From: a virus
Lineage: Duplodnaviria > Heunggongvirae > Uroviricota > Caudoviricetes
Reading direction: 5' to 3' (one strand)
Length of the DNA stretch: 64,000 nt
IMG/VR virus record: IMGVR_UViG_3300031957_002393
Coordinates: 20,373 to 84,372 of that record
Both the position numbers and the translations under genes were made by a program. Under the pieces are notes generated by a model. That model saw only the letters and a list, made by a program, of their open reading frames with translations, did no database searches and was not told the origin of the DNA. Below are positions 5,241 to 42,930 of this stretch, one piece after another. The stretch's first letter is position 1. Every line of letters begins with the position of its first letter.

Positions 5241-6983
5241 ATGACCGTCACAGCCCCCAACGTAGAGATCAACTTGCCGCTGGGCATGAAGTTGTTTCGG
5301 CCCCCGGGAGCCCACGAACGCTATGACGACATGATGGCACAGTTCTTCGCTACGCCTTATGCGTTTTGTTATGTGTGCCCCATCGTCACAATCAACGATG
5401 TCGTTGAGATGATGCAACCCACGGATAATCAGAAACTGGTGGCAACGAAGGCGCAAGACAGTAGGTTTATTTGGGTTAACAAGTATCGTCAGGCGTTCAT
5501 CACTACACTCATGGACATGATGCTTTTGCGTGATTGTATGTACGGGGAAGGCATTCAGGGCGCGTTCGTTGCACAGAAAGAAGACACCCACAAAGAGCAC
5601 ATGCGGCGCATTTCCTTCACGTACAACAAGATGAAAGAGGATCCCATCCTATCAAAGTTCATCGTGCCGTTGAAGAAGAATACAAGCGCAACGATTTCAG
5701 GTATTGAGTTCATTCACGGTGGTGGTATTTGGCCTATCACTGCGGGCTCTGACAGCCCGGGTGTCGGTCGCTCCTTCTCTCGTGTTGTGGAGACAGAGAG
5801 TTGCGAGATGCCCGCCGAAGACTTCCATAGGCTGAACACAAAGTTCTACCCTACGATCACCAAGCGACCCTTCGGTCGTATTTGGCGAGAGAGCACTCCG
5901 GGTAAAGCAGAAACACCCCAACACCGTGCTTGGCTAAAGGCACTCAAGGGTAACAGTCGATTTGAGCCTGTGTTTTTGAAGTGGTGGGAAGATAGCGTCA
6001 ACACGGTACCCTTGAGTGACAAGTTCTCGCCAATCACAGAAGAAGAGAAGGAATACGCTCGACGCCTTAAAGGCATCACAAAGGGGCACGTTTACTTTCG
6101 CCGCTTTGAGATTAGCGACTTCTGTGACGGTGACGAGAATCTGTTTGAGGTCAAGTACCCGAGCGGCCCTCTCAAGGGTTGGACACGCAGCACAGGCACA
6201 GTGTTCGATCAACACCGTCTACAGAAAATGTACGACACGTCAATCAGCGATGACACGGGACGAAACATCAATCATTACTGCCTCGTTGCCAAGAAGCCCA
6301 ACCCTTATCATCGTTACGTTCTGGTAATCGACCCGACGGACTTCGGGGCCACGGGCGATAATGCGGCTATGATCATGTTTGACCGCTGTGACTGGGAAGA
6401 GGTAGCTAAGTGGGAAGGACGGGAAGACCCTACGAAAAGCTACCCCCGTGCAAAGGAAATGTGCAAATACTACAACAACGCCACAATGGTCATCGAGAGC
6501 AACTGCTCTGCCTTCATTGCCTTAGCTACAAGGGATGACGAACCTGACGCTCCACCAATCTACTACGAAAAGAAAGACAAGCCCGGTTGGCGAGCTACAT
6601 CAAAGTCTATTCAGGAAGGTGAGGCCGCGGTTAATGAGCTACTCAAGGAAGAGGTGTTCACATTGAACTTCGCCTCTACCATTGAGCAGATGCTACACTT
6701 CGATGGTAACAAGCGTGACCGACGAGTACGCAATACCCGTGGCGAAAAAAGTCACTTCGATTCGGCGCGCTGCGCTGTCATCGCCGCTCACTGGCTGTAC
6801 AATGGGGGCTACTGCGCCCCCATCTCGGAGGAAGAGCTGCGGAAGCTACGCGAGGCACAAGCCGAGAGAGACGAGGCTATCGCCCGTGAGCGATTCATCG
6901 CTGCGCTCAAGCGCAACGGACGTTACGAGGATCCCAACGCCGACAGCGTGTGGGCACCTGGGGCAGCTCGGAGGATGATGTGA
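5241..6983 (+). CDS. terL: terminase large subunit (putative)
   Basis: 580 aa. C-terminal region has nuclease-like motifs YVLVIDPTDFGATGDNAAMIMFD and MVIESNCSAF (terminase RNaseH-like D...D...E-x-N pattern); directly precedes portal-sized gene. No canonical Walker A seen, start codon uncertain. Confidence 0.5.
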   Translation: MTVTAPNVEINLPLGMKLFRPPGAHERYDDMMAQFFATPYAFCYVCPIVTINDVVEMMQPTDNQKLVATKAQDSRFIWVNKYRQAFITTLMDMMLLRDCMYGEGIQGAFVAQKEDTHKEHMRRISFTYNKMKEDPILSKFIVPLKKNTSATISGIEFIHGGGIWPITAGSDSPGVGRSFSRVVETESCEMPAEDFHRLNTKFYPTITKRPFGRIWRESTPGKAETPQHRAWLKALKGNSRFEPVFLKWWEDSVNTVPLSDKFSPITEEEKEYARRLKGITKGHVYFRRFEISDFCDGDENLFEVKYPSGPLKGWTRSTGTVFDQHRLQKMYDTSISDDTGRNINHYCLVAKKPNPYHRYVLVIDPTDFGATGDNAAMIMFDRCDWEEVAKWEGREDPTKSYPRAKEMCKYYNNATMVIESNCSAFIALATRDDEPDAPPIYYEKKDKPGWRATSKSIQEGEAAVNELLKEEVFTLNFASTIEQMLHFDGNKRDRRVRNTRGEKSHFDSARCAVIAAHWLYNGGYCAPISEEELRKLREAQAERDEAIARERFIAALKRNGRYEDPNADSVWAPGAARRMM

Positions 6984-8671
6984 AGCCAAAGCAACTTAGA
7001 GCCCTCGTTCGGCGACACAAAGAACGATACAGGCAGGAAGAGAAGGATCTATTCGAGCTGAACACTCGATTCTACAATGGTGCCTTCTACGAGAACTCGC
7101 AACAGCGTTTCAGTCTGATGCGCCATGGCTCCACGGGTACGCCTCTTGCTGCTGTCAACCTAATCTTCGCTCTTACGGAATCCGTTTGCTCGTCTATGCT
7201 CGGGCGAGACATCAGTGTTGTAGCGAAGGGAGCAGACGAAAAATCTGAGCAGTTTGAGTTCATCGTTACGCGAATGCTTGCGAATGAGTTCGCACGCAAC
7301 AAGTTCCGTATGACAGCACAGGTGTCGCTAACTGACGCTGTGTTGAATCGACGTGGTTGCTTCAAGGTCATCCCGGATAAAGCCAACCAAGGAGCAAGGA
7401 TTCTTGAGGTGCATCCACGGTACCTCGGTTACTCTCCAGATGCACGGGTGTTAGACGATTCGTCGTACTTCATCCAATGCGTACCTCTGCCGTGGCGTCA
7501 GTTCAAAGCCAACATTGACAGCGGAGCCTACCTGTCACCGAAGAAGGGAGCCAAGCCCGAAGGCTTACCTCAATGGGCAGCAACAGATGAAGAGCAGCGA
7601 CATCGTGATATCTTCGGTTACGCTACCATGTGGGAAATTTACGACACATGGGAAGGCAAAGTTTATCACTACCATGAGTGTAGTGAGCAGGTGTTGTACG
7701 AAGGTCAACCGAGTAACCACCCTTTTGGTATGTTCAGCCTCAACACGAACCAGCGGAACCTCGATGGTTTGAGTGAAGTGGAGTTGATCCTTGAGCAACA
7801 GGTTGCGTTGAATGACTTCCGTTCGACTGTGAATCAACTTGCCTACACGCTCATCCCTCGGATGATGTACGATGCAGGCATGATTGACGAAGACCAGTTG
7901 ACGAGGGTTTTACACGGCTCCGTTGGCGGCTTTGTTCCCGTGAAGCGAAAAGGCAATGCTGTACAGAAGCAGGCGGATTTAAGCCAAATCTTCCGTGAGG
8001 TACCACGGCCGCAGATTCATGGTGACATGATCAACGCCATGAACACAGCGATGTCGGATGCACAGTTTGTAAGCTCACTCATGCCACAGAACCGTGGCCA
8101 AGCGGTTAACATTCGTACAGCTAAGGAAGCCAGTTTGATTGAGGCTCAGGAGAGAAATCGTATCAGCGGGCGCATGGCTAACATGGAAATCAACGGCATC
8201 GTCCCTGTGGCAGAACGGGTACTGTACTACATTAAGAAGTACAGGCAGGGACCGCACACAGTCAAGATGGGTAAGCAGGACTGGCAGCAACTCAGCGGAA
8301 ATGACCTGTTGTCGTTCAAGGGCTCGTATCAGTTAACGGCTCAGTCGCCAGTCAAGACAAACCCAGCCATCATCGCAGAAAACTTAGGTCAACTGCAAAA
8401 CATGCTCGTGCAAAACCCAGACATCAACATGCGTGAGGTCATCGCCCTTATTTTCGAGGGCATGGGGATTCCGAAGGAGCGAGTGTTGCTTTCTCCCGAG
8501 GAAACGGCTAAGATCCAAGAGCAGATGGCCGCACAACAAGCCGCACAACAAGGCGGCGTGAACCCCGACGCCATGGTGGCTGCGAGCGAGCAGGCCGCAC
8601 AAGAAGATCCCTCCGGGGGTCTCGCGACCGCAGAGCAAACGGCTGCTGCAGCCCAGGAGATGATGGGATGA
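6950..8671 (+). CDS. portal protein (putative)
   Basis: 573-aa ORF immediately after terminase (34-nt out-of-frame overlap, GTG start; alternative GTG 6977), followed by scaffold-like genes; assignment by size/synteny only. Confidence 0.45.
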   Translation: MGTWGSSEDDVKPKQLRALVRRHKERYRQEEKDLFELNTRFYNGAFYENSQQRFSLMRHGSTGTPLAAVNLIFALTESVCSSMLGRDISVVAKGADEKSEQFEFIVTRMLANEFARNKFRMTAQVSLTDAVLNRRGCFKVIPDKANQGARILEVHPRYLGYSPDARVLDDSSYFIQCVPLPWRQFKANIDSGAYLSPKKGAKPEGLPQWAATDEEQRHRDIFGYATMWEIYDTWEGKVYHYHECSEQVLYEGQPSNHPFGMFSLNTNQRNLDGLSEVELILEQQVALNDFRSTVNQLAYTLIPRMMYDAGMIDEDQLTRVLHGSVGGFVPVKRKGNAVQKQADLSQIFREVPRPQIHGDMINAMNTAMSDAQFVSSLMPQNRGQAVNIRTAKEASLIEAQERNRISGRMANMEINGIVPVAERVLYYIKKYRQGPHTVKMGKQDWQQLSGNDLLSFKGSYQLTAQSPVKTNPAIIAENLGQLQNMLVQNPDINMREVIALIFEGMGIPKERVLLSPEETAKIQEQMAAQQAAQQGGVNPDAMVAASEQAAQEDPSGGLATAEQTAAAAQEMMG

Positions 8672-15174: not shown

Positions 15175-15188
15175 GAGTAAACACAACC

Positions 15189-16041: not shown

Positions 16042-16071
16042 TATAGGCTTCTGGGTATGGCGACCGGTCGA

Positions 16072-16362: not shown

Positions 16363-16383
16363 TGATCGATCTCCATTGTGAGA

Positions 16384-16403: not shown

Positions 16404-16440
16404 CATCGCTACGCGGCAAGGGATCGATCATCAAGCGATC

Positions 16441-16698: not shown

Positions 16699-16719
16699 GG
16701 TTTGAATCTCCGTTGGGGG

Positions 16720-16739
16720 CACAGACAGTGTAATCGATC
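16720..16739 (-). promoter_or_regulatory. 20-bp direct repeat CACAGACAGTGTAATCGATC (copy 2)
   Basis: Exact repeat of 16384-16403. Confidence 0.45.
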
Positions 16740-17127
16740 ACCCGAGGAATGCAAGGGGCAAGATCCACGCGATCGCAACGACACCGATAGAAGCGCCGAT
16801 GGCATTGTGGCGACGGTGCATAGCGTCGATCGTTGACTCGATACCCGCCCACCACAACGGATCGCGAGTGTCTACGATGACTCGCTGGTCGACAGTGATC
16901 GACGCGCCACCGGTCGAGAGGTTGAGAGCGAGTCGACGGGTAGCGATACCCCCGCGTGCACGGGGCACGATCCGCAGCTCGACACGGTAGCTGGAGACCA
17001 GCGCCGCTACACGAGAGGCATAGTGTCGGATCGACACGATCGCCCGGTACCGCGCCCCCTCAGTAGAATCGATCGCGTGGGTCATAGCAGCGAGAGTGAG
17101 AAGTGCGACGATAGCGAGAGGATACAT
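16738..17127 (-). CDS. membrane/secreted protein with N-terminal signal/TM (MYPLAIVALLTLAAMTHA)
   Basis: Start set to ATG 17127 preceded by ACAATGGAGATCATAATG (same SD context as neighbours). Confidence 0.45.
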   Translation of the reverse strand: MYPLAIVALLTLAAMTHAIDSTEGARYRAIVSIRHYASRVAALVSSYRVELRIVPRARGGIATRRLALNLSTGGASITVDQRVIVDTRDPLWWAGIESTIDAMHRRHNAIGASIGVVAIAWILPLAFLG

Positions 17128-17204
17128 TATGATCTCCATTGTGACGCCGATTGTCTATCAGTGATCACTGACAGGTGCCAGTGATCAAAGATGGACGATC
17201 GGAA

Positions 17205-17459
17205 TCAATCACCGTTGACGTATTCCGTGATCGCGTCGCACTCTGCAATGGCCCGATCAAGCGCTTCGGAAAGGATGCCATCGTCAATCTCGGGGCACTT
17301 GCGGGCCAGCTCGATAGCAGTACCGATCGCTGAAAACCGGTGCCAGTGCTCCTTGCACTCTTCTGTAGTGCGCAAGTATTCAGCGACGCGCACAACGGCA
17401 GCATCCCACGCAAGGGGCGTATGTGAGAGGCCAGAAGGCAAAGAATAAAGAGTAGACAT
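17205..17459 (-). CDS. hypothetical protein (84 aa)
   Basis: ORF, first gene of minus-strand cluster; upstream 580-bp noncoding region. Confidence 0.4.
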   Translation of the reverse strand: MSTLYSLPSGLSHTPLAWDAAVVRVAEYLRTTEECKEHWHRFSAIGTAIELARKCPEIDDGILSEALDRAIAECDAITEYVNGD

Positions 17460-18040
17460 GGCGGGATCTCCTTTGATTGAGACACGACACTGCTACCGCA
17501 GCGATCACGGCATGTCCACAAAAGAATCATGTCCATTATATACGCGAAAGGCGACCGCCTATTGCAAGTATTGGGCCAATTGGACATTGGCACGGGGAAT
17601 GCATTAGTGGGAGTGCTTATGGTCCCGTCTCCAGGCGCCGATAGCATAGTGACTATCGACCTTTTCGTCTTTGTTATTGTTATACCTTACGACCCTTTAC
17701 TTATGTTTTATGTGTCTACCTCTACCCTCTTTTCACCTACGCACTGCTACCATGGGGGTTTATGCGGAGTGTATTGTATGGATCATTACTACATGAATGC
17801 CCCGATGACTCGGGGGCGATCGAGTGAGCATTTTTACTTACCAGGGGGGCGCCCCGTCGACTCGCTGGGGCGATCCCGCGGTGATCGTGTTGACTATGAT
17901 CCCCTTGACGCCTGTATTTCCGATGTCGTCCGAAGATTCTTTTAAAACAACCCTTGCCATTGGGGACCCGTAGACATAAGCTCTCTGTGTCGGAAGGGAA
18001 GCGGCGCCCCGCTGCTACCAACGACAGAGGAGATCAAACA

Positions 18041-18565
18041 ATGCCAAAGCGCAAAATTCTGCCCCGTGTTACGTGGCTGCAAGTCACTGGAGACCTGTCA
18101 CCCGAGGACTACGGTGGAATCTTCGCAAGGGGTAGCCTCTCCAGTTACAGCCGCGACTACGATACCGTGGAGATTCTGCGGATCGAACGCAAAACCGATC
18201 TCGTCGGCGCCGATGCCTTGACAGACGACGATCCCGATGCATACTGGACAAGCGAAGCGGAGATCGATCGCAAGGATCTTGCATCCTTGTGGGAAGGTCC
18301 GAAAGGACAAGCTGTGCGGGATCAGTTTGATCCCGCAATGACCTACCCCGACCCTCGCAAGTGCAGTCTGTTCGATCTGGCGTGCCTTGCGTCAGAGCTT
18401 GCACAGTACGGCTACCTCGGGTGGGATGAAACCTCAGACATTTCGGGGCACGAGATTAGCAAGCGTTACCGCTTGCGCGACTACAACGGTCGATCGATCC
18501 GTCGAGCATTCAAGGTCGGACAGAGGGAACATGATCGTGAGGTTGCCGATCACAATCGGCGATGA
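18041..18565 (+). CDS. hypothetical protein (174 aa)
   Basis: ATG 18041 with SD GAGGAGA 7 nt upstream. Confidence 0.45.
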   Translation: MPKRKILPRVTWLQVTGDLSPEDYGGIFARGSLSSYSRDYDTVEILRIERKTDLVGADALTDDDPDAYWTSEAEIDRKDLASLWEGPKGQAVRDQFDPAMTYPDPRKCSLFDLACLASELAQYGYLGWDETSDISGHEISKRYRLRDYNGRSIRRAFKVGQREHDREVADHNRR

Positions 18566-18691
18566 TAGCATAGATCCATGATTCATCATGGATCGTAATG
18601 GTAATCCGCTGGCCCATTGTTGGGTTGCGTTGACGGGCCACCGGGTTACCTTTACGATCAATGAAGATCGTTTCATCGGGAGATACAAGTA

Positions 18692-18961
18692 ATGCCTGTG
18701 GTCAATGATCATCGGCCCGAAGATCGCAAGGGTGATCGATGGGCAGTAGTGGGCACAGATTCTTTCATGTCCGGTACCAGTTTCGCACGGGGCGGGGCCA
18801 GCTATGCGGCCTGGAGTGTGCGGGATCGTGCGGAGCTGGCCATCGCAGAAGCATACGTGAGAGCAAGATCGGACATGCGGCGCGCCCGGATCGTGGATCT
18901 CCACGATTACCGGCCTAAGTGCAAACAGTTTTCGATCTATGCTTACACAGAGCAGAGCTGA
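18692..18961 (+). CDS. hypothetical protein (89 aa)
   Basis: ATG with upstream SD-like GGGAGA. Confidence 0.4.
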   Translation: MPVVNDHRPEDRKGDRWAVVGTDSFMSGTSFARGGASYAAWSVRDRAELAIAEAYVRARSDMRRARIVDLHDYRPKCKQFSIYAYTEQS

Positions 18962-19051
18962 TCCGGTGTTCACGCTTGCATCATAGCGATCGCCTTGCTA
19001 TGGTGCTGGCGTAAGCAACGGAACAAACAACAGGCAGAGGAGATACAAACA

Positions 19052-19525
19052 ATGCGAACAACAGAAGCACGCTACACGATCGGGCAACGCTACTCGCGCA
19101 ACGCTACAGGCAACGGCTACAGGCCCGCTACCTACGGGGAATGGCACGCCGTGACACTGCGATACAAGCGCAACGAGATCACGATCCTTGTGGATCGATC
19201 CATGGTCGATCGTATGATCGTCCGGCGGGTCATCGGCTCGGCTGTGTTCTGTCTCGCCGATACAAACCCTCGTTACGGCACGGCTTCCTTTATCGTGCTC
19301 GATATGGAAACCGAGATCCGGCATGGATCCACGGTTGACATCGGGGACGGGGAAGCATACGATCTGACGGGTACCACGGGTGATCTTTTCTTTCAGGGAG
19401 AAGAGTGGACCGCGTTTCTACACCCTGATATGGATCCGTGCGCTGACAACACCCCAGATCCTTTCGACCTTGACGATCTCACAGTGATCCGACGCGTGAT
19501 CGACTATTGGGGAGAAGTGTGTTAG
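19052..19525 (+). CDS. hypothetical protein (157 aa)
   Basis: ATG 19052 with SD GAGGAGA; leader GTAAGCAACGGAACAAACAACAGG. Confidence 0.45.
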   Translation: MRTTEARYTIGQRYSRNATGNGYRPATYGEWHAVTLRYKRNEITILVDRSMVDRMIVRRVIGSAVFCLADTNPRYGTASFIVLDMETEIRHGSTVDIGDGEAYDLTGTTGDLFFQGEEWTAFLHPDMDPCADNTPDPFDLDDLTVIRRVIDYWGEVC

Positions 19526-19679
19526 ACGGTTGACATTGCAGCGCTGTAGCGATAGCCCCGTCGACTCGGGGGCTACATAGGCCACAAGATCCGGTGCCTA
19601 CCTTTGGGTATCGTCCACCTGGACGGTACCGTTAGGTAACCATCGGGCCGCATAGGCTCACACTCTGGAGATACAAGCA

Positions 19680-27213: not shown

Positions 27214-27508
27214 CAGCTCTCGGTATCAGTCGACGGGACGTAGAGTCGTTGCGGCTACAAGGGACCTTGTCGAATGGTACGAGGGTTGCAACAGGACGAC
27301 AAGTCTACATGATCGACAATCCGATGGTACACGGAATGTACATCGGTGTCACGCCTGACGGCTACGTCACCATCCTACACGACAACAAGAGTCAATGGGA
27401 AAAAAGTAGTCGACGGGATGAATTCAACCGCCTATGTAGGAAAGTGTACGGTGAGCGGTGGCGTACACGAGTCTACAAGAACAACACAGATGGAAAAAGG
27501 AACACACG

Positions 27509-28075
27509 ATGAACAACGATACCATGAACGCTACTACTTTTGACTTCGGGGATGGTGCCGGTCCTGTGCCTGCGAAGCGTCATATCAACCCCGATGGCAG
27601 CGAAGGTGGATGGGTGGCATCGACCGCAATTGTTGCGGGTAGCGCGTGGGTGTTCGGGAATGCACGGGTGTACGGGGATGCATGTGTGTACGGGTATGCA
27701 CAGGTGTTCGGGAATGCACGGGTGTACGGGTATGCACGGGTGTACGGGGATGCACAGGTGTTCGGGAATGCACAGGTGTACGGGGATGCATGTGTGTACG
27801 GGAATGCATGTGTGTACGGGAATGCACGGGTGTGCACCACCGCTGACTGCGCTTTCGGGAGCACAGGAGATTACGCCTGGACAGCATACACCACTAACAC
27901 AACTACCTTCCTCAAGTATGGGTGTGAAGCACATGCTATCGAGTGGTGGCGTCAGCAGGACAGCAAACTCTCGGTGAAGCACGGTCACGACGAGAACCAT
28001 TGGGCGTATGTCAAAGCAGTCATCGCGATCGCAGAAGTAATCGAAGCCAACAGGGTTAAGGAAGGTGAGGAATGA
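27509..28075 (+). CDS. hexapeptide-repeat (left-handed beta-helix-like) protein
   Basis: 10 tandem V[FY]G[NDY]A[RQC] hexapeptides encoded by 18-bp tandem DNA repeat; ATG 27509 after AAAAAGGAAC. Confidence 0.5.
   Translation: MNNDTMNATTFDFGDGAGPVPAKRHINPDGSEGGWVASTAIVAGSAWVFGNARVYGDACVYGYAQVFGNARVYGYARVYGDAQVFGNAQVYGDACVYGNACVYGNARVCTTADCAFGSTGDYAWTAYTTNTTTFLKYGCEAHAIEWWRQQDSKLSVKHGHDENHWAYVKAVIAIAEVIEANRVKEGEE
27650..27829 (+). repeat. 10 x 18-bp in-frame tandem repeat GTGT(A/T)CGGG(A/G/T)ATGCA(C/T)(G/A)G
   Basis: Direct reading of 27650-27829; encodes the hexapeptide array. Confidence 0.85.
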
Positions 28076-28491
28076 GCAGTAGCAAAGCACATGAGCTTGT
28101 TGCGCAGGATCTCAAGCGACAAATCGAACGTATCGAAGGGATCACAAAGGCAGCAAAAAGCCGAGGGATCACAGACTTCGATGTCACCTGGCCATCGTTT
28201 AACCGCAAGGTAATCATGAGCGGCTACGTCACCTTCGCTTCGATAGAGAGTTTCATGCGCTTGGTGCCTGCCTTCGCAAACGGCAAAGCATACAGCTTTG
28301 AAATCAAAACACACGACGCAAAGTACGTGGAAGTGCAAGCGTCGCAGGGCTCAGATGTGTACATTCGAGTGATCGTAGTCGATGAAGCGGTGCCGCGAAC
28401 ACTTCACACGATCACGAGGATGATGAAGGTTGCCATGCAGCACATCAACAATGTGGATGAGTTCTTTGTCAAAGGGGCTGGTTGCGGTTAG
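28072..28491 (+). CDS. hypothetical protein (139 aa)
   Basis: ATGA overlap with upstream gene. Confidence 0.4.
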   Translation: MSSSKAHELVAQDLKRQIERIEGITKAAKSRGITDFDVTWPSFNRKVIMSGYVTFASIESFMRLVPAFANGKAYSFEIKTHDAKYVEVQASQGSDVYIRVIVVDEAVPRTLHTITRMMKVAMQHINNVDEFFVKGAGCG

Positions 28492-28608
28492 GGAGATAAG
28501 TGCGAACAGAGTCAACACAGTTGACCCCATCGACGAGGCGACAAGTCGACTCGGGGCGGGGGCCAGGGCTACACAGTAACACAACGTATACAGGTAAGGA
28601 GTTCTACA

Positions 28609-28950
28609 ATGCGCATCGAACATGACATGGACATCGATCACTACGGCATCGCACCCCGTGGGCGCCTGCGGCCTCGACACGTCAAGGCCATCACACGGGC
28701 CCAGATTCGGCGCGAGGGAGGCCATGGGCCCGCAGTGGTGGTGCAGGTGGGAGATGGAGGTAGGAGCCAGCGGGAGGCAGAGACGGCGGAGGACGTGCGG
28801 GTGCCTGCAAGGGACAGCGGGTGGATGGAACCCGTGGGTGTGGCTACCCCGGGGATGCACGTTGATGCAGCCCTTGGTGCAGGTATCATGGGAGCTGCGA
28901 TCGCTGTATTGATCTGGTTGCCGAGTGTAGTCCGATCGCTTACGGGGTGA
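28609..28950 (+). CDS. hypothetical protein (113 aa)
   Basis: SD AGGAG 9 nt upstream. Confidence 0.35.
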   Translation: MRIEHDMDIDHYGIAPRGRLRPRHVKAITRAQIRREGGHGPAVVVQVGDGGRSQREAETAEDVRVPARDSGWMEPVGVATPGMHVDAALGAGIMGAAIAVLIWLPSVVRSLTG

Positions 28951-28975
28951 ATGGTCGCACAAAAGGAACGAACGC

Positions 28976-30196
28976 ATGAACAACAATGATTCCACGGGGG
29001 AGTGCATGGAACTATACGATCAAGTTTTCAAGGTGCCAGCCATGCAACAATGGTTACAAGAGCACGAAGCCAATATCGACTTCATCTGTGTGAGATGTAC
29101 GCTATCCCACGGGGACAAAGGGTACCATGTGATCGGTGTCCGTGGACCCACGGGCCTTACCTTCTACCTGTGGAGCATTCAACATAACGACAGTGTTAAG
29201 GCTACGCCTTACTACGGTTGGCACACACTCAATCTCAATCACTGCAAAGTTACTGCGGTGGCGTGGAATGAAGAGGGTGTGCAGGTTCCATGCAAGGTAC
29301 CACGTTGGGCACTCTTCTCTCTTGCGTGCAGAGCTGCAAGTGTCGAAGGTTACAAGGGTGAGCCTACCAACCGCTTTCACACGGGCGCGCACGGGAAGCT
29401 GAAGTACACATACGGCAAGCAAGAAGACGTAGCTATGCCCCCAAGGTACGATCACCGTGACATGTTCACTGTGACAGAGGTGCAATGGGATGTTAGGTAT
29501 GACACCACGGAGGAAGACATGACTACACCGAAGCAACTACAGCCCGGGGAAGTAGTTGAAACAGAGGAGCTAAGGGAACGCATCGTTCACATGGACGAAT
29601 GCTACTTCGAGCGAGAGGAGAGACAGCGTAACCCTGTTGGTGGCTACACAGAACTCAAGTGGGTCAAGTCTGCGGGGCGATACTACGAGCGACTCTCAGC
29701 TAAGCGTGAATGGGTATCGATCGGAACGATGCTAAAGGTGTACGGTTTCTGTGTCAAGTGGCGTATCGTTTCGCCCCCGAGTCAACTGTGCACCACCGAC
29801 AACATGAGCGACAAGGTAGAAGCCATGAGCGACAACACGGACAAAGTCAACGACACGGTGCCTGTGGACACGATCACTATCACTCTCACGCTACCTGTAC
29901 CCATCGGTACGGGGAAGCTGGTCGACAAGAAGCGATTGCTCGACTACTTTGCCTCACTTATGCACGATGAGGCGTTTAGGGACGCATGTAGCATGGTCGA
30001 TGCGGGCATTAGTGTGTGCGACACCCACAGCGTAGAAAACGGTGGGTCAGTAGGTGCGTGGATCCGTGAACGATCCTATGTCACCACGAAGGATGACGCC
30101 CCCGAGTCGACTGGAGTAGCATCTGACCTCAACGCCCCCGAGTCTACTGGGCGCACAAAGGGAACGATGCTACGATCAGCTCCTCCGTGTAAGTAA
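28976..30196 (+). CDS. hypothetical protein (406 aa)
   Basis: Long ORF; contains two CGCCCCCGAGT repeat copies near 3' end in-frame (DAPESTG x2). Confidence 0.4.
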   Translation: MNNNDSTGECMELYDQVFKVPAMQQWLQEHEANIDFICVRCTLSHGDKGYHVIGVRGPTGLTFYLWSIQHNDSVKATPYYGWHTLNLNHCKVTAVAWNEEGVQVPCKVPRWALFSLACRAASVEGYKGEPTNRFHTGAHGKLKYTYGKQEDVAMPPRYDHRDMFTVTEVQWDVRYDTTEEDMTTPKQLQPGEVVETEELRERIVHMDECYFEREERQRNPVGGYTELKWVKSAGRYYERLSAKREWVSIGTMLKVYGFCVKWRIVSPPSQLCTTDNMSDKVEAMSDNTDKVNDTVPVDTITITLTLPVPIGTGKLVDKKRLLDYFASLMHDEAFRDACSMVDAGISVCDTHSVENGGSVGAWIRERSYVTTKDDAPESTGVASDLNAPESTGRTKGTMLRSAPPCK

Positions 30197-30229
30197 AAAG
30201 GTATTACGCGGTGAGTGTCGACACACATG

Positions 30230-30895
30230 TCACTCGTCGGGTCTCAGCCAATCGGGTACAGTGGTGTCGACATGATCACTTTCATTCAATCGACTCGGGG
30301 GCGTAGTAGCTGTTGTGTCGATGGTGTCAATGAGCGACGTTGGTGCCACGGGGGTAACGTCGACACGGGGAGGATCCTTTTTCAATCCATCACGTTTTAC
30401 TCCCTCAGTCATCATGCGTAGACGATCGAAGATTTCTGCGATGCCAGCTTCCTCGGGAGACACAGGCTTGTTCTCTCGCAACGCTGCCTCGGTGTCGTAT
30501 TGATACTTCGATGCCACACCTGCGTGAAACAACACCTGCTTCGCTGCGTTGACACGGGCTGTATCTTTCGCTTCCACGTCTTCGGCGATGTCCATTAGTA
30601 CAGTGAGTGCACGGGGACCAAAGCCGATAGCTTTCTGAGCGATCGACAAGCGTTGCGATTCCATGTACGCCACTCGTGCACGACGGAGAGCGGGGTGGCA
30701 CGAGAGACCCGATGTGAAGGATAACAAACTGAGGCCAAGGGACGTTGCGATTGCCGGATCACTTTGACCCTCGGACAACAAGCGTATACATTCCTCGACC
30801 ATCATGGCGTTGTGGACCCACGGGGGTGCACCCGGCGCAATGTTGTATTCGGGTACATTAACGGTAGTCATTGTGCCACTGGTAACTTTAGGCAT
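30230..30895 (-). CDS. terminase small subunit-like HTH DNA-binding protein
   Basis: ECIRLLSEGQSDPAIATSLGLS (HTH) and RALTVLMDIAEDVEAKDTARVNAAKQVLFHAG resemble Terminase_2/TerS C-terminal motif; start set to ATG 30895 (minus-strand SD GGAG). On opposite strand and 24 kb from terL. Confidence 0.4.
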   Translation of the reverse strand: MPKVTSGTMTTVNVPEYNIAPGAPPWVHNAMMVEECIRLLSEGQSDPAIATSLGLSLLSFTSGLSCHPALRRARVAYMESQRLSIAQKAIGFGPRALTVLMDIAEDVEAKDTARVNAAKQVLFHAGVASKYQYDTEAALRENKPVSPEEAGIAEIFDRLRMMTEGVKRDGLKKDPPRVDVTPVAPTSLIDTIDTTATTPPSRLNESDHVDTTVPDWLRPDE

Positions 30896-31655
30896 AGTTG
30901 GACTCCATGGATGAAGGTAGCTGCGTTGAACTCGGGGGTGACGGCAAGAAACGGCATGGGCAGAAAGCATATTCGACTCGGACACCCCTTCGACTCGGGG
31001 GCGACCACGAGTCATCGGGGGTAGCGCGTCGCCCAGGCGAGTCGACTGTGCAAGTCGCCTGAGGGAGTAGAAGGTGGAAGCATGGAGCGCCACGGCACAC
31101 ACAGAGTACCACGGACAGTGGGGTTTGTCGATCAGGTAGGCATATCCCTACGGGATTCTACGGGGGAGGGGTCACCTGCTCCATTACGAGAGTGTCGGCC
31201 GTCAGCGGATTCTCGGGGGGCTAAATGGAGAAACCTCGTACTTCCCCTACCCCTACCTCATTTCTACTACTCTACTACTACTCGACTACGATCACTCTCT
31301 CGTGAAGAAGTGCTACGGAGTAGGCGAGGTTTTGATCGGTACTATAGGGGCTGTAGAAAACTTCTGAGCGAACGTGACAGCCGTGTGACACCGAGCTGTC
31401 AAAATCGCCGAGAGTGTAGTAGCGGCCGACATTCTCTTAATGGAACCCGCGTTTCCTCCGTGCAACTACCTACCGCCATTACGACTATGACCGTCACCAC
31501 AGCACTCTCGCGGAATCGTGCCATATGGCCCGCAGTTTGTGAGGGCTTGTGCGTAGTCACACGGTGTAACTCCCTGTACCACACTTCCACAAAGACGTTG
31601 CACCCTGCTACCCAATGGGCTACAATGTGTGCACCATCCTCATGGAGACACACCG

Positions 31656-31964
31656 ATGCAGTTGTTTAAGTCACCTCGTCGACGACGAGTCAGGTACCAT
31701 GGTACCTTGCCTTTCCACAAGAGTTGTAGGGTGTACGACTGTGAAGTCATGATCCCCTACAGAGGCAAAGAGTACAGATACGTCGCTGTCATGCGATCAC
31801 AGGTACCGGGGCTTGAATCAGGTCTCACACTTTACTTCGTGTACGAGAGTGAAGATGGGCGACAGCGGTTGCGGGGACCTGTGGGATGGTGCGACACAGT
31901 GAGCTACAAGTCTGCGTTGCGATCGATCAACATGGTTCTCGTGGGTGACGATGGATCTTCATGA
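31656..31964 (+). CDS. hypothetical protein (102 aa)
   Basis: ATG 31656 ORF embedded in repeat-rich noncoding region. Confidence 0.3.
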   Translation: MQLFKSPRRRRVRYHGTLPFHKSCRVYDCEVMIPYRGKEYRYVAVMRSQVPGLESGLTLYFVYESEDGRQRLRGPVGWCDTVSYKSALRSINMVLVGDDGSS

Positions 31965-32423
31965 ACATGTTGACATGCTCCCACGGGGATGCTACCATGT
32001 GGATATAGACAGTCGCCCCCGAGTTGACTGTGCGCTCCTGGCGAGTAAACGGGGATAACAGGATTAACAACATTCGCCCCCGAGTTATCTGGGCGATATA
32101 GAAGGGTCAACGGGGCTAACACTACAAAGATGACACGATTGAGCACCGGCCATGATGATCGCCCAGGCGAGGCAACTGTGGTCAGTGGCATGGTAATCAC
32201 TACACCACAACGACATGTTACCCCCATCGACTCGGGGGATGAGGGTTGTTGCTTCTTACTACCACAGTCAACTCGGGGGCGATCACCGGTTGACACTCTT
32301 CGGGCCCGGTGTTACATGAGAATCGGGGTGAAAAAGTAACACCATCCTACAAACAACAACTGACGCCCCCGAGTCAACGGGGCAACATGACGATACCTTC
32401 CACACCACTACAAAGGTAAAACA

Positions 32424-32999
32424 ATGACCTACAGTAACGATGACTACAAAGAACTACAGCACTCCATCATCGCACAGGTAGCAGGGTTCAAGAGGACACG
32501 CAGCTCAAGCTGCGGAGCATGGTTCACGGACGAGTATCGTGGGATGGTGGATGGCAAGGAAGATGTCATTCGTGTGTCAGGTGCCGTTCACGAGCGACGA
32601 GACCTGTTGCTCAATGAGCTACGGCGGCTGAACATTCTTCCATCCCCGACGGATTGTTGGGTCGCATGGGTGAAGGAACTGAATGATCTTCGCGACGTTA
32701 TGTACAGTGAGCTACGGGCTCTACATCGACAGGGGATTGAGGAACGTGCACTCATGTGCCTCAACAACACTATGGGTCCCGATGCAACTCATGCCGTAGT
32801 ATGGTATCGTGGACAGGTGCCGATGGAGATTAAGGACCTGTCTACCAACGGGGGCGATGAGGATTGGTTCATGGTCTACACGGACTCGTTCACTTATGGT
32901 CAACCATCGTGGGCAGAGGAAGGCAGCTCCTTTGGTTGCTGCTGTGTCGAAGAGCATGTGATCGGTGACTACACTGTTCTTATCGGTTGTCACTCGTGA
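32424..32999 (+). CDS. hypothetical protein (191 aa)
   Basis: ORF after AAAGGTAAAACAATG. Confidence 0.4.
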   Translation: MTYSNDDYKELQHSIIAQVAGFKRTRSSSCGAWFTDEYRGMVDGKEDVIRVSGAVHERRDLLLNELRRLNILPSPTDCWVAWVKELNDLRDVMYSELRALHRQGIEERALMCLNNTMGPDATHAVVWYRGQVPMEIKDLSTNGGDEDWFMVYTDSFTYGQPSWAEEGSSFGCCCVEEHVIGDYTVLIGCHS

Positions 33000-33173
33000 A
33001 TGCACTCGACCATGAACGTGAGCGAATCCGTTTTCGTCAACGTCTTCTCGCTTGCAATGGAGGCCCAGAGTGGTTACTACACATCATCAAGCTGTTCGGC
33101 TGTCACGAGCAACGACTCGGCCCGGGTGACTTCGGGCTGCCACAACACATCATGCAGCAGATGAGGTGAAACC

Positions 33174-33749
33174 ATGACCACTGCAACGCCTGAACAACTC
33201 GCTGCCCTGGTACTACCGGCAACGCTGCCCGGTGTGGTGCGTCCATTCACGCCTCTTCGACCTCCAGCCGGGAGCAAATGGGATTCGACGTGGATTCGCG
33301 GCTGTGCGCTCGAAGTCGATTGGGATGTGGAGCCGGTTAACGGCAAGCCGTCCCCTCCTGAACTTTTCGGCGACGTGGCCTATCAGTACATGTCGAAGCA
33401 TGGCATGACTCTGCCTTGCGTTGTGGACAGCATGTGTCTGCGGCACTGGCTTGTCGACCTGACCGATGCAACTGCCAGGGCGCATGTGGCGTGGGCGGTC
33501 GCGTCAGCGTGTGGGCTGGAGGAGCCACTCAAGGCCGTCTACGCCCCAGGGCGCTCCGTGCTGACCGGGGAGGTCGGCTTTGGTATCATCACGCAATCGG
33601 CCGAAGAAGGGGAAGACTCTCGGTGGTTCTGGGACGAGGTCAGTGCGCTCAACATGCACGACGACACCCGCCTCCCAGACGGCTCCCGCTGTGTCGACGC
33701 CGAAGCCCTCCGGCTCGTCGCGCTGCAAGTGCTCGGGGATAAGCCTTGA
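33174..33749 (+). CDS. hypothetical protein (191 aa)
   Basis: ORF with SD-like AGGTGA. Confidence 0.4.
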   Translation: MTTATPEQLAALVLPATLPGVVRPFTPLRPPAGSKWDSTWIRGCALEVDWDVEPVNGKPSPPELFGDVAYQYMSKHGMTLPCVVDSMCLRHWLVDLTDATARAHVAWAVASACGLEEPLKAVYAPGRSVLTGEVGFGIITQSAEEGEDSRWFWDEVSALNMHDDTRLPDGSRCVDAEALRLVALQVLGDKP

Positions 33750-34021
33750 CAAAGCGTGAACACCCGTAGTTAGACGAGCGAGGAGAAGAAGTTACGAGGT
33801 ACACGTTTCACCCGATCGCACCGTGTTACCCCGAAGACTACACTCCACGTTACTTAACCCGAGTTGACTGTGCTCGTTGGCGCATGAAACTCTTGACATG
33901 TCAACCCCTACACCGTGTGACTTTCGCTTGCCGCCCGTGCCTACCGTGTTACCCTTGGTGCGGGATGCAGGATCCCAGGGCGTTGAGGAACCATAACACT
34001 TTTTCACACAGGAGCATAACG

Positions 34022-38354: not shown

Positions 38355-38425
38355 TGGCGCATCGTCTAACGGCAAGGCCCTGGTTTTTGGCACCAGTGAT
38401 GAGGGTTCGAGTCCTTCTGCGCCAG
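38355..38425 (+). tRNA. tRNA-Gln(UUG)
   Basis: Hand-folded: acceptor TGGCGCA/TGCGCCA (U1-A72 as in bacterial tRNA-Gln), AC stem CTGGT/ACCAG, loop TTTTGGC, T-arm GAGGG-TTCGAGT-CCTTC. Confidence 0.65.
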
Positions 38426-38473
38426 CTCTTGTGGGTTCAGTCAACGCTTGCTACGGGAAGGCAGGTACCTTAT

Positions 38474-38542
38474 GGGGTGATAGCTTAATGGAGAGCGGCA
38501 GGCGGCCACCTGCAGGTGAGGGTTCAAGTCCCTCAAACCCCT
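38474..38542 (+). tRNA. degenerate tRNA-like element (possible tRNA pseudogene; anticodon unclear)
   Basis: Good T-arm GAGGG-TTCAAGT-CCCTC and D-loop TAGCTTAATGG but acceptor has 2 mismatches and anticodon loop is 6 nt (GCAGG-CGGCCA-CCTGC). Confidence 0.3.
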
Positions 38543-38546
38543 TCGT

Positions 38547-38620
38547 GATTCTGTAGCTCAGTTGGTTAGAGCGGCTGATTGTTAATCAGCGGGTCGGAGG
38601 TTCGAGTCCTCCCAGAATCG
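38547..38620 (+). tRNA. tRNA-Asn(GUU)
   Basis: Acceptor GATTCTG/CAGAATC, D-loop TAGCTCAGTTGGTTAGAGC, AC stem GCTGA/TCAGC loop TTGTTAA, T-arm GGAGG-TTCGAGT-CCTCC. Confidence 0.8.
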
Positions 38621-38625
38621 CTTTT

Positions 38626-38698
38626 GGTTGTCAAGCTCAGTTGGCGGAGCGCTGGTCTGAAGCACCAGAGGTGCGGGGTTCGATTCCCCGGGCAACCA
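38626..38698 (+). tRNA. tRNA-Phe(GAA)
   Basis: Acceptor GGTTGTC/GGCAACC (one G-U), AC stem CTGGT/ACCAG loop CTGAAGC, T-arm CGGGG-TTCGATT-CCCCG. Confidence 0.75.
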
Positions 38699-38722
38699 TT
38701 TTCTTTTAGGGAGCAATGAAAC

Positions 38723-39097
38723 ATGTACAAGCAGGTACTCATCTATCGACGTGACCTCAAGATGCGGAAGGGTAAGATTGCGGCGCAGTGTGCTCATGCC
38801 GCAGTGAGGTTGTGTGTCCAGTGTTTCACGTCGTCATTCACTGGCATCGATCGGTTGAGGGAATGGTACCATAGCGGCCAGAAGAAGATCGTGCTCAGCG
38901 TCGACACCCTTGAGGAGCTGTACGAGTTGCAGGCCCAGGCGGCTGTTGCAGGGCTACGCAACGCCATCGTGACTGATACAGGTGCGACGGAGTTTCACGG
39001 GGTAGCTACGGTCACTGTACTCGGCATCGGTCCCTGTACAGATGAAGAAGTCGATCCGATCACTCGCAATGGTGATGTTGCAACAAAGCTCGCATGA
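38723..39097 (+). CDS. pth2: peptidyl-tRNA hydrolase, PTH2 family
   Basis: KQVLIYRRDLKMRKGKIAAQCAHAAV matches PTH2 signature (human PTRH2 ...[21 protein letters not shown]...); SD GGGAG; sits between tRNA genes. Confidence 0.75.
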   Translation: MYKQVLIYRRDLKMRKGKIAAQCAHAAVRLCVQCFTSSFTGIDRLREWYHSGQKKIVLSVDTLEELYELQAQAAVAGLRNAIVTDTGATEFHGVATVTVLGIGPCTDEEVDPITRNGDVATKLA

Positions 39098-39117
39098 GGT
39101 TATGATTACATTAACAC

Positions 39118-39190
39118 GGGCCCCTAACTCAATCGGTAGAATACCGTCTTTTTAAGTCGGGGGTTGTGGGTTCGAGTCCCACGGGGCCCA
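39118..39190 (+). tRNA. tRNA-Lys(UUU)
   Basis: Acceptor GGGCCCC/GGGGCCC, AC stem CCGTC/GTCGG (one mismatch) loop TTTTTAA, T-arm GTGGG-TTCGAGT-CCCAC. Confidence 0.6.
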
Positions 39191-40505: not shown

Positions 40506-40551
40506 ACTACTTTCAGGCCCCGATGGCGGAATAGGTAGACGTACGGGCCTT

Positions 40552-41240
40552 TGAGGAGCAATATGACATTGTACGCCGGCTATCGACTTAACGGGCCGTA
40601 TCTTCGACCTGATGGACGTAAGCACTTGGTAGTGGTTAAGCCCAACGGAAAGAAGACGACGCTATCTTACCCTAAGTATCTAATGGAGATGCACTTGGGC
40701 AGGTACTTGCTGCCTAATGAGTCGGTTGATCACATCAACAAGGACTTTACGGATGACAGGCTAGAGAATCTACAGGTTCTCACCCATTCCGAACACGCCC
40801 AACTTGATGCGAAAAGGCTGGTAGCTCAAACTTTTGAATGCCCTTGGTGTGAAAAGGAGTTTGAGCTTGTGGGCAAGAAGTTGTCTTACGCACTATCTAA
40901 CAGAAAGAGAGGCAAAGCTGGACCTTTCTGTGGTAGGAGCTGTGCGGGTAAATACGGCGCTTCCGTGCAAAACGGAGGTAAGCCTATTGCCTGTACCTTG
41001 ATTACTCCAGAGTACACTTGTCATAAGTTCACACAGAGCCTCAATCAAGAAACTGATTGAGTGGACGGCGCTAAGTCGGGGAAACCTTAACAGGTAACGC
41101 TGATGGCAATCCCGAGCTAACCCTAAAGGGTGAGTGTAGAGACTTTACACGCCGCACCTAAAGCTATTAGCTAAGGTGAAGAGAAAGTCCAGACTACAAA
41201 CAAACAGCTTGCGTTTGGCTACGAAAGTAGTAGTGGTAAG
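40552..41240 (+). mobile_element. group I-like intron (689 nt) in tRNA-Leu anticodon loop, carrying HNH homing endonuclease ORF
   Basis: Inserted after U34 (U at -1) and ends with G (41240), as for group I introns; 3' 180 nt contain GGGAAACC and AGACTA core-like strings; same insertion site as cyanobacterial/plastid trnL(UAA) intron. Confidence 0.55.
40563..41060 (+). CDS. HNH homing endonuclease (intron-encoded)
   Basis: ATG 40563 with SD GAGGAG; DHINKDFTDDRLENLQVLTHSEHAQ = HNH motif; C-terminal Cys cluster CPWC...CGRSC (zinc finger). Confidence 0.75.
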   Translation: MTLYAGYRLNGPYLRPDGRKHLVVVKPNGKKTTLSYPKYLMEMHLGRYLLPNESVDHINKDFTDDRLENLQVLTHSEHAQLDAKRLVAQTFECPWCEKEFELVGKKLSYALSNRKRGKAGPFCGRSCAGKYGASVQNGGKPIACTLITPEYTCHKFTQSLNQETD

Positions 41241-42854: not shown

Positions 42855-42930
42855 GCCGGGTTAGCTCAGTTGGTAGGGCTGTGGTTTTGTAAACCACCGG
42901 TCGTGGGTTCGAGTCCCTCACCCGGCACCA
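42855..42930 (+). tRNA. tRNA-Thr(UGU), CCA encoded
   Basis: Acceptor GCCGGGT/ACCCGGC, D-loop TAGCTCAGTTGGTAGGGC, AC stem GTGGT/ACCAC loop TTTGTAA, T-arm GTGGG-TTCGAGT-CCCTC (one mismatch). Confidence 0.6.

What the first reader, a model, noticed from the sequence alone, without database searches (positions are those of the whole stretch)
30230..30895. Terminase-small-subunit-like gene displaced 24 kb from terL, on the opposite strand, embedded in the repeat cluster
The protein has an HTH (ECIRLLSEGQSDPAIATSLGLS) and a RALTVLMDIAEDVEAKDTARVNAAKQVLFHAG segment resembling the conserved TerS (Terminase_2) C-terminal motif. It is not adjacent to the terminase large subunit at 5241 and is transcribed leftward. 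It is surrounded by the CGCCCCCGAGT repeats. It is either an uncoupled TerS/pac module or a TerS-fold DNA-binding protein recruited for another role such as a replication initiator or transcription factor.
Basis: partly seen in the sequence, partly recalled or inferred. Interest (0 to 1): 0.6.

Follow-up and report, generated by a model that had tools for sequence, protein, structure and literature searches.

The report
Unlinked, antisense small-terminase-like phage gene
A 221-residue phage protein encoded alone on the opposite strand, 23 kb from the DNA-packaging motor gene, is a very divergent relative of the "small terminase" that normally sits beside that gene, and it probably marks where this uncultured ~92 kb phage starts packaging its DNA.

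Summary
Window 30230-30895 (-) is a real 221-aa gene with a GGAG ribosome site. It is the only leftward gene in a long rightward block and sits in the densest cluster of the CGCCCCCGAGTCGA motif. No Pfam, PHROG or NCBIfam family claims it, and it has no close relatives in 5.8 billion protein clusters. An exhaustive HMMER search found three distant homologues. Profiles built from them hit the solved small terminases of Pseudomonas phages PaP3 (E 4.6e-6) and NV1 (1.8e-4), across the oligomerisation hairpin, beta-strand and start of the acidic tail. One homologue sits in the canonical place, overlapping a Terminase_6 terL. The two others occupy the same syntenic, antisense position as here. The gene at 5241-6983 is a true TerL (T4 gp17, E 1.3e-17). 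In this phage and in the three relatives whose upstream flank could be read, the gene next upstream of it runs leftward, so no terS lies beside it. No other window ORF matches a TerS family. The upstream non-coding DNA carries a conserved 20-nt inverted pair with an identical 221-nt spacing in two phages. Most likely this is a genuine but unlinked TerS with its recognition site. A TerS-derived regulator is not excluded.

The parts
30230..30895 (-). TerS-like gene, 221 aa plus stop
   Evidence: ORF and start. Identical protein called in a JGI and a Logan assembly. Profile hits to PaP3 and NV1 TerS.
30698..30835 (-). N-terminal helix-turn-helix domain (about residues 21-66)
30473..30697 (-). Region homologous to the TerS oligomerisation core (about residues 67-141: two long helices plus the GVASKYQYDTE segment)
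   Evidence: Aligns to PaP3 TerS residues 55-136. In PaP3, residues 64-105 are the alpha4-alpha5 hairpin and 107-121 the beta-barrel strand (PMC7672466).
30233..30472 (-). Acidic, Pro/Thr/Ser-rich, predicted-disordered C-terminal tail ending in PDWLRPDE
   Evidence: 16 D/E against 10 K/R, and 24 P/T/S in 80 residues. pLDDT <50. P0003 ends in DDDDWLK.
30903..30906 (-). Shine-Dalgarno GGAG
   Evidence: Read directly from the sequence.
31103..31111 (-). Candidate extended -10 promoter TGgTACTCT. It is conserved as TGaTATACT upstream of the L010 homologue.
   Evidence: Alignment A3. Its function as a promoter is an inference.
31182..31201 (+). Gene-proximal copy of the 20-nt element CATTMMGAGARTGTCKGCCG
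   Evidence: 2 matches against 0.02 expected.
31423..31442 (-). Gene-distal copy of the same element, in inverted orientation, 221 nt from the proximal copy
   Evidence: L010 has the same inverted pair with the same 221-nt inner spacing. The two copies pair in the predicted folds of both sequences.
31236..31300 (-). Purine-rich tract between the inverted 20-mers, conserved in kind in L010
30927..31003 (-). Two copies of the CGCCCCCGAGTCGA motif (30927-30940 and 30990-31003) in the 5' leader of the gene
30290..30303 (-). Motif copy inside the 3' part of the gene (it encodes TPPSRL)
30097..30146 (+). Two motif copies just past the stop codon, inside the 3' end of the convergent gene 28976-30196. 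They are inverted relative to the 30290 copy (18-nt arms, 89-94% complementary).
   Evidence: I8, I11.
32014..32377 (.). Five further motif copies (32014+, 32075+, 32227-, 32268-, 32364+) in the intergenic DNA before the first rightward gene (32424). They include a perfect 20-nt inverted pair.
   Evidence: I4.
5241..6983 (+). Large terminase (TerL), the presumed partner
   Evidence: The profile of 28 homologues hits T4 gp17 (E 1.3e-17) and the RB49 TerL nuclease domain (6.4e-6).
6980..8671 (+). Portal protein
   Evidence: SU10_portal E 3.8e-6; phrog_332 and phrog_156.

Best explanation
The gene encodes this phage's small terminase (TerS), in a very divergent form. It is expressed from its own promoter as a solitary leftward gene, not as the first gene of the terL operon. 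By analogy with the PaP3/NV1/SF6 class, the protein has four parts: an N-terminal HTH, a helical hairpin and a strand that build an oligomeric ring (probably a nonamer), and an acidic disordered tail. The ring would bind a packaging-recognition site and hand the DNA to TerL (5241-6983) for the first cut and for translocation through the portal (6980-8671). As in lambda, HK97, SPP1 and P22 (textbook knowledge), the recognition site is expected next to or inside the terS gene. The best candidate is the conserved upstream element: two inverted 20-mers exactly 221 nt apart around a purine-rich tract. The CGCCCCCGAGTCGA copies in the leader may also contribute. What is shown: homology to TerS, the four-part architecture, absence of a terS beside terL, and conservation of the position and of the upstream element. 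What is inferred: ring formation, DNA binding, the identity of the site, and interaction with TerL.
For: (1) The top PDB hit with the single sequence is PaP3 TerS (E 0.031). With the 4-sequence profile, 6w7t scores E 4.6e-6 and 7joq 1.8e-4. With only the three antisense-position proteins the values are 5.8e-5 and 6.4e-4. The match covers PaP3 residues 55-136, which are the hairpin, the strand and the start of the acidic tail. (2) Homologue P0005 (E 4.7e-5 in a library of 1.8 billion proteins) overlaps the start of a Terminase_6N/6C terL, the canonical terS position. (3) The TerL identification is confirmed. No terS lies upstream of it here or in three relatives. (4) A PHROG scan of 90 window ORFs found no other TerS family among the 25 families listed, out of 29 matched at E<=1e-3. 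ORFs next to terL and the portal show nothing TerS-like. (5) P0003 and P0004 occupy the same antisense position with shared neighbours. (6) The tail is acidic and disordered, and the extreme C-terminus (DWL) is shared with P0003. (7) The cis element upstream is conserved and has identical spacing in two phages whose proteins are only 38% identical. (8) Foldseek places Sf6 gp1 TerS second in the PDB search, and several proteins named 'Terminase small subunit' are among the top BFVD hits. These matches are weak but consistent.
Against: No curated family (Pfam, PHROG, NCBIfam) recognises the protein. The structure model is confident only for the HTH domain, and the fold searches are not significant for TerS. 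The HTH region has few basic residues (1 K/R in residues 21-66). The gene sits among small, early-looking genes, not with the structural genes. Its upstream region shares no motif with the terL/capsid-side intergenic region, so co-regulation with packaging genes is not shown. About 28.5 kb of the 92.5 kb genome lies outside the window and was not scanned for another terS. No data on genome ends are available.
Confidence: 0.55

Rival explanations
1. The protein is a TerS-derived DNA-binding protein that no longer packages DNA. It would act as a transcription regulator, binding the CGCCCCCGAGTCGA family of sites that punctuate strand-switch and intergenic regions, including its own leader (autoregulation).
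For: It is a solitary antisense HTH gene in an early-type region, a placement typical of phage regulators. The motif is strongly over-represented (19 against 0.37). It lies at three of three convergent junctions, at three divergent regions and in the gene's own leader. The related phage L010 has a similar motif (GGCCCCGRG) in 11-bp tandem arrays in most intergenic regions next to TTGACA-type promoters. P0004's HTH resembles sigma-70 region 4.
Against: The TerS core, strand and acidic tail are retained and conserved. Nothing links the protein to the motif apart from proximity. In L010 the motif is not concentrated around the gene, and the 3.9 kb L003 contig shows no such motif. Motif orientation does not follow transcription direction. 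Many copies are small hairpins with a conserved loop, which suggests recognition at the RNA or single-stranded DNA level and not as a duplex operator. The phage would then lack any recognisable TerS.
Confidence: 0.2
2. The protein is an origin-binding or replication-initiation accessory protein. It would act on the repeat-rich, low-coding 1.5 kb region 30896-32423 (inverted 20-mers, purine tract, GC-rich repeats).
For: Repeats flanking a compositionally biased tract beside a DNA-binding gene is a classic origin layout. The region has only doubtful ORFs. The spacing of the element is conserved.
Against: No similarity to any initiator family was found. The only significant homology is to terminase small subunits. 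The replication genes (DUF927 primase-helicase type, helicase) lie 25 kb away. Cumulative GC skew shows no turning point here.
Confidence: 0.07
3. The TerS similarity is convergent or spurious, and the protein is simply an uncharacterised HTH protein followed by helical and disordered regions.
For: The single-sequence hit is only E 0.031. The profiles rest on 3-4 sequences. The fold searches give mostly generic HTH and TetR-like matches.
Against: Two independent solved TerS are the only natural proteins that reach significance, and they do so with two different profiles. The alignment runs over about 80 residues with matching element order. A homologue sits in the canonical terS slot. The BFVD hits are enriched for proteins named TerS.
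Confidence: 0.1

Closest known systems
Small terminase of Pseudomonas phage PaP3 (PDB 6W7T) and phage NV1 (PDB 7JOQ); Niazi et al. 2020, PMC7672466
   Same: The order of parts is the same: N-terminal HTH, two-helix hairpin, strand, acidic disordered tail. Profile-level sequence similarity covers PaP3 residues 55-136.
   Different: The match is below recognition by any curated family model. The target is 221 aa against 152-157 aa, with a much longer tail. The gene is not beside terL and lies on the opposite strand. Oligomeric state and DNA binding are untested.
SPP1 G1P / pac, lambda Nu1 / cosB and HK97 TerS / cos arrangements (from established knowledge, not tested here)
   Same: In these systems the TerS gene lies immediately next to, or overlaps, a multi-part recognition site with separated binding elements. 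Here a conserved two-part element with fixed spacing lies directly upstream of the gene.
   Different: In those phages terS is followed directly by terL in one operon. Here the putative site-plus-terS cassette stands alone, 23 kb from terL. That the element is a packaging site is only an inference.
Phages with an 'orphan' TerL and no identified TerS (Felix O1, LP65, P100, EJ-1; PMC3185647)
   Same: terL is not preceded by a recognisable terS.
   Different: Here a TerS-like candidate can be named elsewhere in the genome.
Sf6 gp1 small terminase (PDB 3HEF/4DZJ)
   Same: It is the second-ranked Foldseek match in the PDB search, with the same HTH-plus-helical-core topology.

Membership tests
Small terminase, HTH + helical hairpin + beta-barrel class (PaP3/NV1/SF6-like) | N-terminal helix-turn-helix DNA-binding domain | tested here: met
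Small terminase, HTH + helical hairpin + beta-barrel class (PaP3/NV1/SF6-like) | Central helical hairpin homologous to the oligomerisation core of solved TerS | tested here: met
   Profile A1 hits 6w7t at 4.6e-6 and 7joq at 1.8e-4. Profile A4 hits them at 5.8e-5 and 6.4e-4.
Small terminase, HTH + helical hairpin + beta-barrel class (PaP3/NV1/SF6-like) | Strand after the hairpin that forms the ring's beta-barrel | tested here: inconclusive
   GVASKYQYDTE aligns to PaP3 residues 107-116. However, the monomer AF2 model is of low confidence there and does not show a strand.
Small terminase, HTH + helical hairpin + beta-barrel class (PaP3/NV1/SF6-like) | Acidic, disordered C-terminal tail | tested here: met
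   16 D/E against 10 K/R in the last 80 residues; pLDDT <50.
Small terminase, HTH + helical hairpin + beta-barrel class (PaP3/NV1/SF6-like) | Ring oligomer (8-11 subunits, usually 9) | not testable with these tools
   No multimer prediction or experiment was available.
Small terminase, HTH + helical hairpin + beta-barrel class (PaP3/NV1/SF6-like) | Gene immediately upstream of, and co-transcribed with, terL (the usual but not universal arrangement) | tested here: not met
   The gene lies 23.2 kb from terL on the opposite strand. Homologue P0005 does meet this feature.
Small terminase, HTH + helical hairpin + beta-barrel class (PaP3/NV1/SF6-like) | Specific binding to the pac/cos site and stimulation of TerL | not testable with these tools
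   This requires biochemistry or mapping of the genome ends.
   Terminase_2 was not reported at E<=10 for the target, or at E<=1 for its homologues.
PHROG small-terminase families | HMM match | tested here: not met
   The target matches only phrog_15261 and phrog_3330, both of unknown function (E 0.028 and 0.046). P0005 hits phrog_15261 at 1.4e-15 and the TerS families phrog_10899 and phrog_18735 only weakly (0.0043 and 0.011).
Phage repressor / genome-wide operator ('stoperator'-type) regulator | HTH protein plus many copies of one asymmetric site, oriented with transcription, in intergenic regions | tested here: inconclusive
   Both the HTH and an abundant motif exist. However, motif orientation is mixed relative to transcription, several copies are inside genes, and many are hairpins. 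Binding is untested.
Phage repressor / genome-wide operator ('stoperator'-type) regulator | Lysogeny module (integrase or similar) nearby | tested here: not met
   No integrase or recombinase family appears among the 25 PHROG families listed (of 29 matched at E<=1e-3) for 90 window ORFs. This covers the window only.

The most novel reading that the evidence does not exclude
The TerS-like gene and the conserved, fixed-geometry upstream element (261 bp bounded by inverted 20-mers) form a self-contained cassette. In a clade of ~90 kb phages with 'orphan' TerL genes, this cassette has been uncoupled from the packaging operon and placed antisense among early genes. In the most novel version, the TerS fold has been exapted there. 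The protein would then act as a genome-wide DNA- or hairpin-binding regulator, or as an origin/packaging dual-function protein recognising the GC-rich CCCCCGAG motif family, and not only as a packaging initiator.
Probability: 0.2. Interest if true: 0.6.

Novelty: new variant of a known kind. Interest (0 to 1): 0.4.

Why it matters
Small terminases diverge so quickly that many phages, especially uncultured ones, are annotated with a TerL and no TerS. This case offers a concrete candidate TerS for a metagenomic clade of ~90-97 kb phages whose TerL family has no Pfam coverage. It also shows that looking only next to terL would miss the gene. The conserved element upstream gives a specific, testable candidate for the packaging-initiation site. 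If the protein instead regulates transcription through the abundant GC-rich motif, it would be a documented example of a TerS fold re-used for another job.

Tried and rejected
- **Public phage records:** megablast of 28000-34000 and tblastn of the target and of P0004 found nothing. P0005 gave one unannotated hit in Pseudomonas phage PAE2.
- **Curated families:** Pfam, PHROG and NCBIfam scans of the target gave nothing significant.
- **Word-indexed homologue search:** it returned only the protein itself.
- **P0002:** this exhaustive-search hit is a 1817-aa tandem-repeat artefact and was discarded.
- **More relatives:** scans of IMG/VR and JGI metagenome contigs with the family profiles, and a DNA-pattern scan for the conserved upstream element, found nothing.
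- **Motif as intrinsic terminators:** rejected. The scan found 0 terminator-like sites in 29500-32600, and only the 10788 copy has a T-rich tail.
- **Motif as a phage-RNAP-type promoter:** rejected, because orientation does not follow gene direction.
- **Shared promoter motif between the target's upstream region and the terL/capsid-side intergenic region:** none found.
- **Linking the TerS-like homologues to TerL homologues by sample:** the samples differ.
- **The 369-aa gene upstream of terL:** it could not be identified.
- **The JGI-called ORF 31082-31669:** probably not coding. It overlaps the conserved non-coding element, and L010 has no matching ORF.

Full report
**1. What is at the coordinates**

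The minus strand of 30230-30895 holds a 221-codon ORF that starts at an ATG, with GGAG 8-11 nt upstream. The frame stays open back to a GTG at 31102, but the extension looks non-protein-like. The closest homologue (P0003) begins at the position equivalent to the ATG. Two independent assemblies, one JGI and one Logan, call exactly this 221-aa protein.

Within the JGI gene calls it is the only leftward gene in a rightward block that runs from about 17.6 kb to 55.7 kb. The one exception is a doubtful 32-aa call. The quoted HTH and RALTVLMDIAED... stretches are both present.

**2. The repeats**

CCCCCGAGT occurs 19 times in the window against 0.37 expected. The 14-mer CGCCCCCGAGTCGA, allowing up to 2 mismatches, occurs 18 times against 0.64 expected. 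Eleven of the 19 exact cores lie in 29772-32377 (P about 3e-11 for a uniform spread).

- One copy is inside the gene (30290).
- Two are in its 5' leader (30927 and 30990).
- Two lie just beyond its stop codon (30097 and 30133), inside the 3' end of the convergent 406-aa gene. They form 18-nt inverted repeats with the 30290 copy.
- Five more lie before the next rightward gene (32014-32377).

So "embedded in the repeat cluster" is correct. The motif is not specific to this gene, however. A second group lies at 10788-19574. Copies sit at all three convergent gene junctions, at three divergent regions and inside several genes in different reading frames. About half are small hairpins (CCCC[C]-GAGTCGA-GGGG). 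The others extend to CGCCCCCGAGTYGACTGKG.

**3. What the protein is**

No curated library recognises it. Pfam gives only HTH_23 at E 0.062. PHROGs gives two families of unknown function at E about 0.03-0.05. NCBIfam gives nothing. No public phage record matches at DNA or protein level. Among 5.8 billion protein clusters it matches only itself.

The exhaustive HMMER scan of 1.84 billion representatives found three true relatives:

- P0003: 222 aa, 38% identity, E 4.8e-23.
- P0004: 266 aa, E 1.5e-5.
- P0005: 116 aa, E 4.7e-5.

It also returned one repeat artefact, which was discarded.

Against the PDB, the single sequence already ranks PaP3 small terminase first (E 0.031). The alignment pairs PRALTVLMDIAEDVEAKDTARVNAAKQVLFHAGVASKYQ with PMALRVIVSIAEDPNEKGGIRLKAAQDILDRGGFGAKQK.

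- A profile of the four proteins hits PaP3 TerS at 4.6e-6 and NV1 TerS at 1.8e-4.
- A profile of only the three antisense-position proteins still gives 5.8e-5 and 6.4e-4.
- The one stronger hit (8vd6) is a designed repeat protein that matches the HTH several times and is not informative.

According to the PaP3 structure paper, residues 18-63 are the HTH, 64-105 the alpha4-alpha5 hairpin, 107-121 the beta-barrel strand and 122-152 an acidic tail (PMC7672466). The match spans PaP3 residues 55-136.

The target therefore has the full order of parts:

- The HTH is at about residues 21-66, with AF2 pLDDT 87-94 when the alignment is used.
- The hairpin and strand region is at about residues 67-141.
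- The 80-residue acidic, Pro/Thr/Ser-rich tail is predicted disordered.

**4. Genomic context of the homologues**

P0005 lies directly upstream of, and overlaps, a 448-aa Terminase_6N/6C terL, which is the canonical terS position. P0003 (contig L010) and P0004 (L003-L005) are, like the target, oriented against their neighbours. Those neighbours are homologous to window genes at 25.3-27.5 kb. The antisense position is therefore conserved synteny across three phages, not an accident of one genome.

**5. Is there a terS next to terL?**

The ORF 5241-6983 has no Pfam hit. A profile of 28 homologues hits T4 gp17 (E 1.3e-17) and the RB49 TerL nuclease domain (6.4e-6). It is followed by a SU10/P22-type portal.

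The gene immediately upstream (3948-5057) is leftward, and the 183-nt gap holds no ORF. The same divergent layout, with leftward genes, then terL and the portal rightward, is found in TerL relatives from 4.8 kb to 96.6 kb contigs (L012/L013, L014/L015, L020). The small ORFs after the portal show nothing TerS-like.

A PHROG scan of 90 window ORFs listed no small-terminase family among the 25 families shown, out of 29 matched at E<=1e-3. The roughly 28.5 kb of the 92.5 kb contig outside the window was not examined.

**6. The upstream region**

Between the gene and the next rightward gene (32424) lie 1.5 kb with only doubtful ORFs. Aligning this region with the upstream region of the L010 homologue shows conserved non-coding DNA.

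- There is a candidate extended -10 (TGgTACTCT in the window, TGaTATACT in L010).
- There is a purine-rich tract.
- There is a 20-nt element, CATTMMGAGARTGTCKGCCG. It is present as an inverted pair at 31182-31201 (+) and 31423-31442 (-), with 2 matches against 0.02 expected.
- L010 has the same inverted pair (2543-2562 and 2784-2803), plus one more copy.

The inner spacing is 221 nt in both phages, although the adjacent proteins are only 38% identical. The two copies pair in the predicted folds of both sequences. The z-score is -3.5 for the window and -1.25 for L010, and only one compensatory change is seen, so an RNA structure is not established.

A two-part site of fixed geometry next to terS recalls the pac/cos sites of SPP1, lambda and HK97. 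That comparison rests on established knowledge and was not tested here.

**7. Interpretation**

The most economical reading is a genuine small terminase with its recognition site, uncoupled from terL (confidence 0.55). Shown steps are the homology, the architecture, the absence of a neighbouring terS, and the conserved position and cis element. Inferred steps are ring assembly, DNA binding, the identity of the site and contact with TerL.

The main rival (0.2) is a TerS-derived regulator that binds the GC-rich motif. In its favour are the gene's placement and the intergenic and strand-switch distribution of the motif. The related phage L010 also has GGCCCCGRG in 11-bp tandem arrays beside TTGACA-type promoters.

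Against it, nothing ties the protein to the motif beyond proximity. The motif is not concentrated around the gene in L010 and was not found on L003. Its orientation is mixed relative to transcription.

An origin-binding role (0.07) and a spurious similarity (0.1) are less likely. My probability that the protein is at least an evolutionary TerS homologue is about 0.85.

**8. Novelty and score**

The protein family is new to curated databases. The solitary antisense placement, conserved across three phages and paired with a fixed-spacing cis element, is an unusual organisation of a known function. I rate it a new variant of a known kind.

Phages with a TerL but no identified TerS are well known (for example Felix O1, PMC3185647). 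A specialist would find this useful more than startling. Interest is 0.4.

Noticed in passing
window 10788-19574, 26930, 28546, 29772-32377, 35196, 39516: The CGCCCCCGAGTCGA motif comes in two forms. One is a small hairpin with a conserved loop (for example GGCCCCCGAGTCGATCGGGGGCC at 10788). The other is an extended form, CGCCCCCGAGTYGACTGKG. Copies sit at all three convergent gene junctions, at divergent regions, and inside genes in different reading frames. Their function is unknown (a protein site, an RNA or ssDNA hairpin signal, or REP/PeSL-like elements).
   Followed up: partly
L010 324-2251 and 5425-9811: The related phage contig carries GGCCCCGRG in 11-bp tandem arrays in most intergenic regions, often beside a TGTTGACGTGTCAA palindrome. 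The array orientation flips on the two sides of the TerS-like gene, although the flanking genes all run the same way.
   Followed up: partly
window 31172-31452; L010 2533-2813: A 261-nt unit is bounded by inverted 20-mers with an identical 221-nt inner spacing in two diverged phages, enclosing a purine-rich tract. It could be a DNA site or a structured RNA. JGI called an ORF (31082-31669) across it that is probably not real.
   Followed up: partly
window 5241-6983 and relatives P0007-P0055: The TerL belongs to a family of more than 50 metagenomic clusters with no Pfam domain on record. It is recognisable as T4 gp17-like only by profile. Several members come from ~53-97 kb contigs, and the three whose upstream flank was read share a layout in which leftward genes diverge from terL and the portal.
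   Followed up: partly
window 38355-39190 and 42855-42930: There are six tRNA genes (Gln, an odd one with an undetermined anticodon, Asn, Phe, Lys, Thr). A PTH2 peptidyl-tRNA hydrolase gene (38723-39097) lies among them.
   Followed up: no
window 27458-28075: The ORF contains tandem repeats of roughly 54 nt encoding GNARVYGDACVYGYAQVF-type units (beta-helix-like). A same-length ORF is open on the opposite strand. BLAST self-hits fall at 27649-27833.
   Followed up: no
window 28976-30196: The C-terminus of the convergent 406-aa protein contains DAPESTG twice. Each copy is encoded by a copy of the DNA motif, so the motif is imposed on coding sequence.
   Followed up: no
window 55755-57977: A DUF927 (primase-helicase type) gene is another solitary leftward gene in the rightward block, next to a helicase (57904-60039).
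   Followed up: no
window 63562-64000; L002; L003-L005: The JGI contig ends at window 63562, but the window continues for 438 nt with the ORF intact. The JGI contig also differs from the window by 3 mismatches per ~20 kb, so the window comes from another or a circularised assembly. The Logan contig L002 is 100% identical and stops at 30979, 84 nt upstream of the target's ATG. All three contigs that carry P0004 stop 292-455 nt upstream of that gene. These contig ends may hint at a genome end or a hard-to-assemble region.
   Followed up: partly
window 44411-45223, 48110-49042, 40551-41060: The window also carries an SPFH/Band 7 protein, a ThyX thymidylate synthase and an HNH endonuclease. Ten of the 25 listed PHROG families are HNH endonuclease families.
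   Followed up: no
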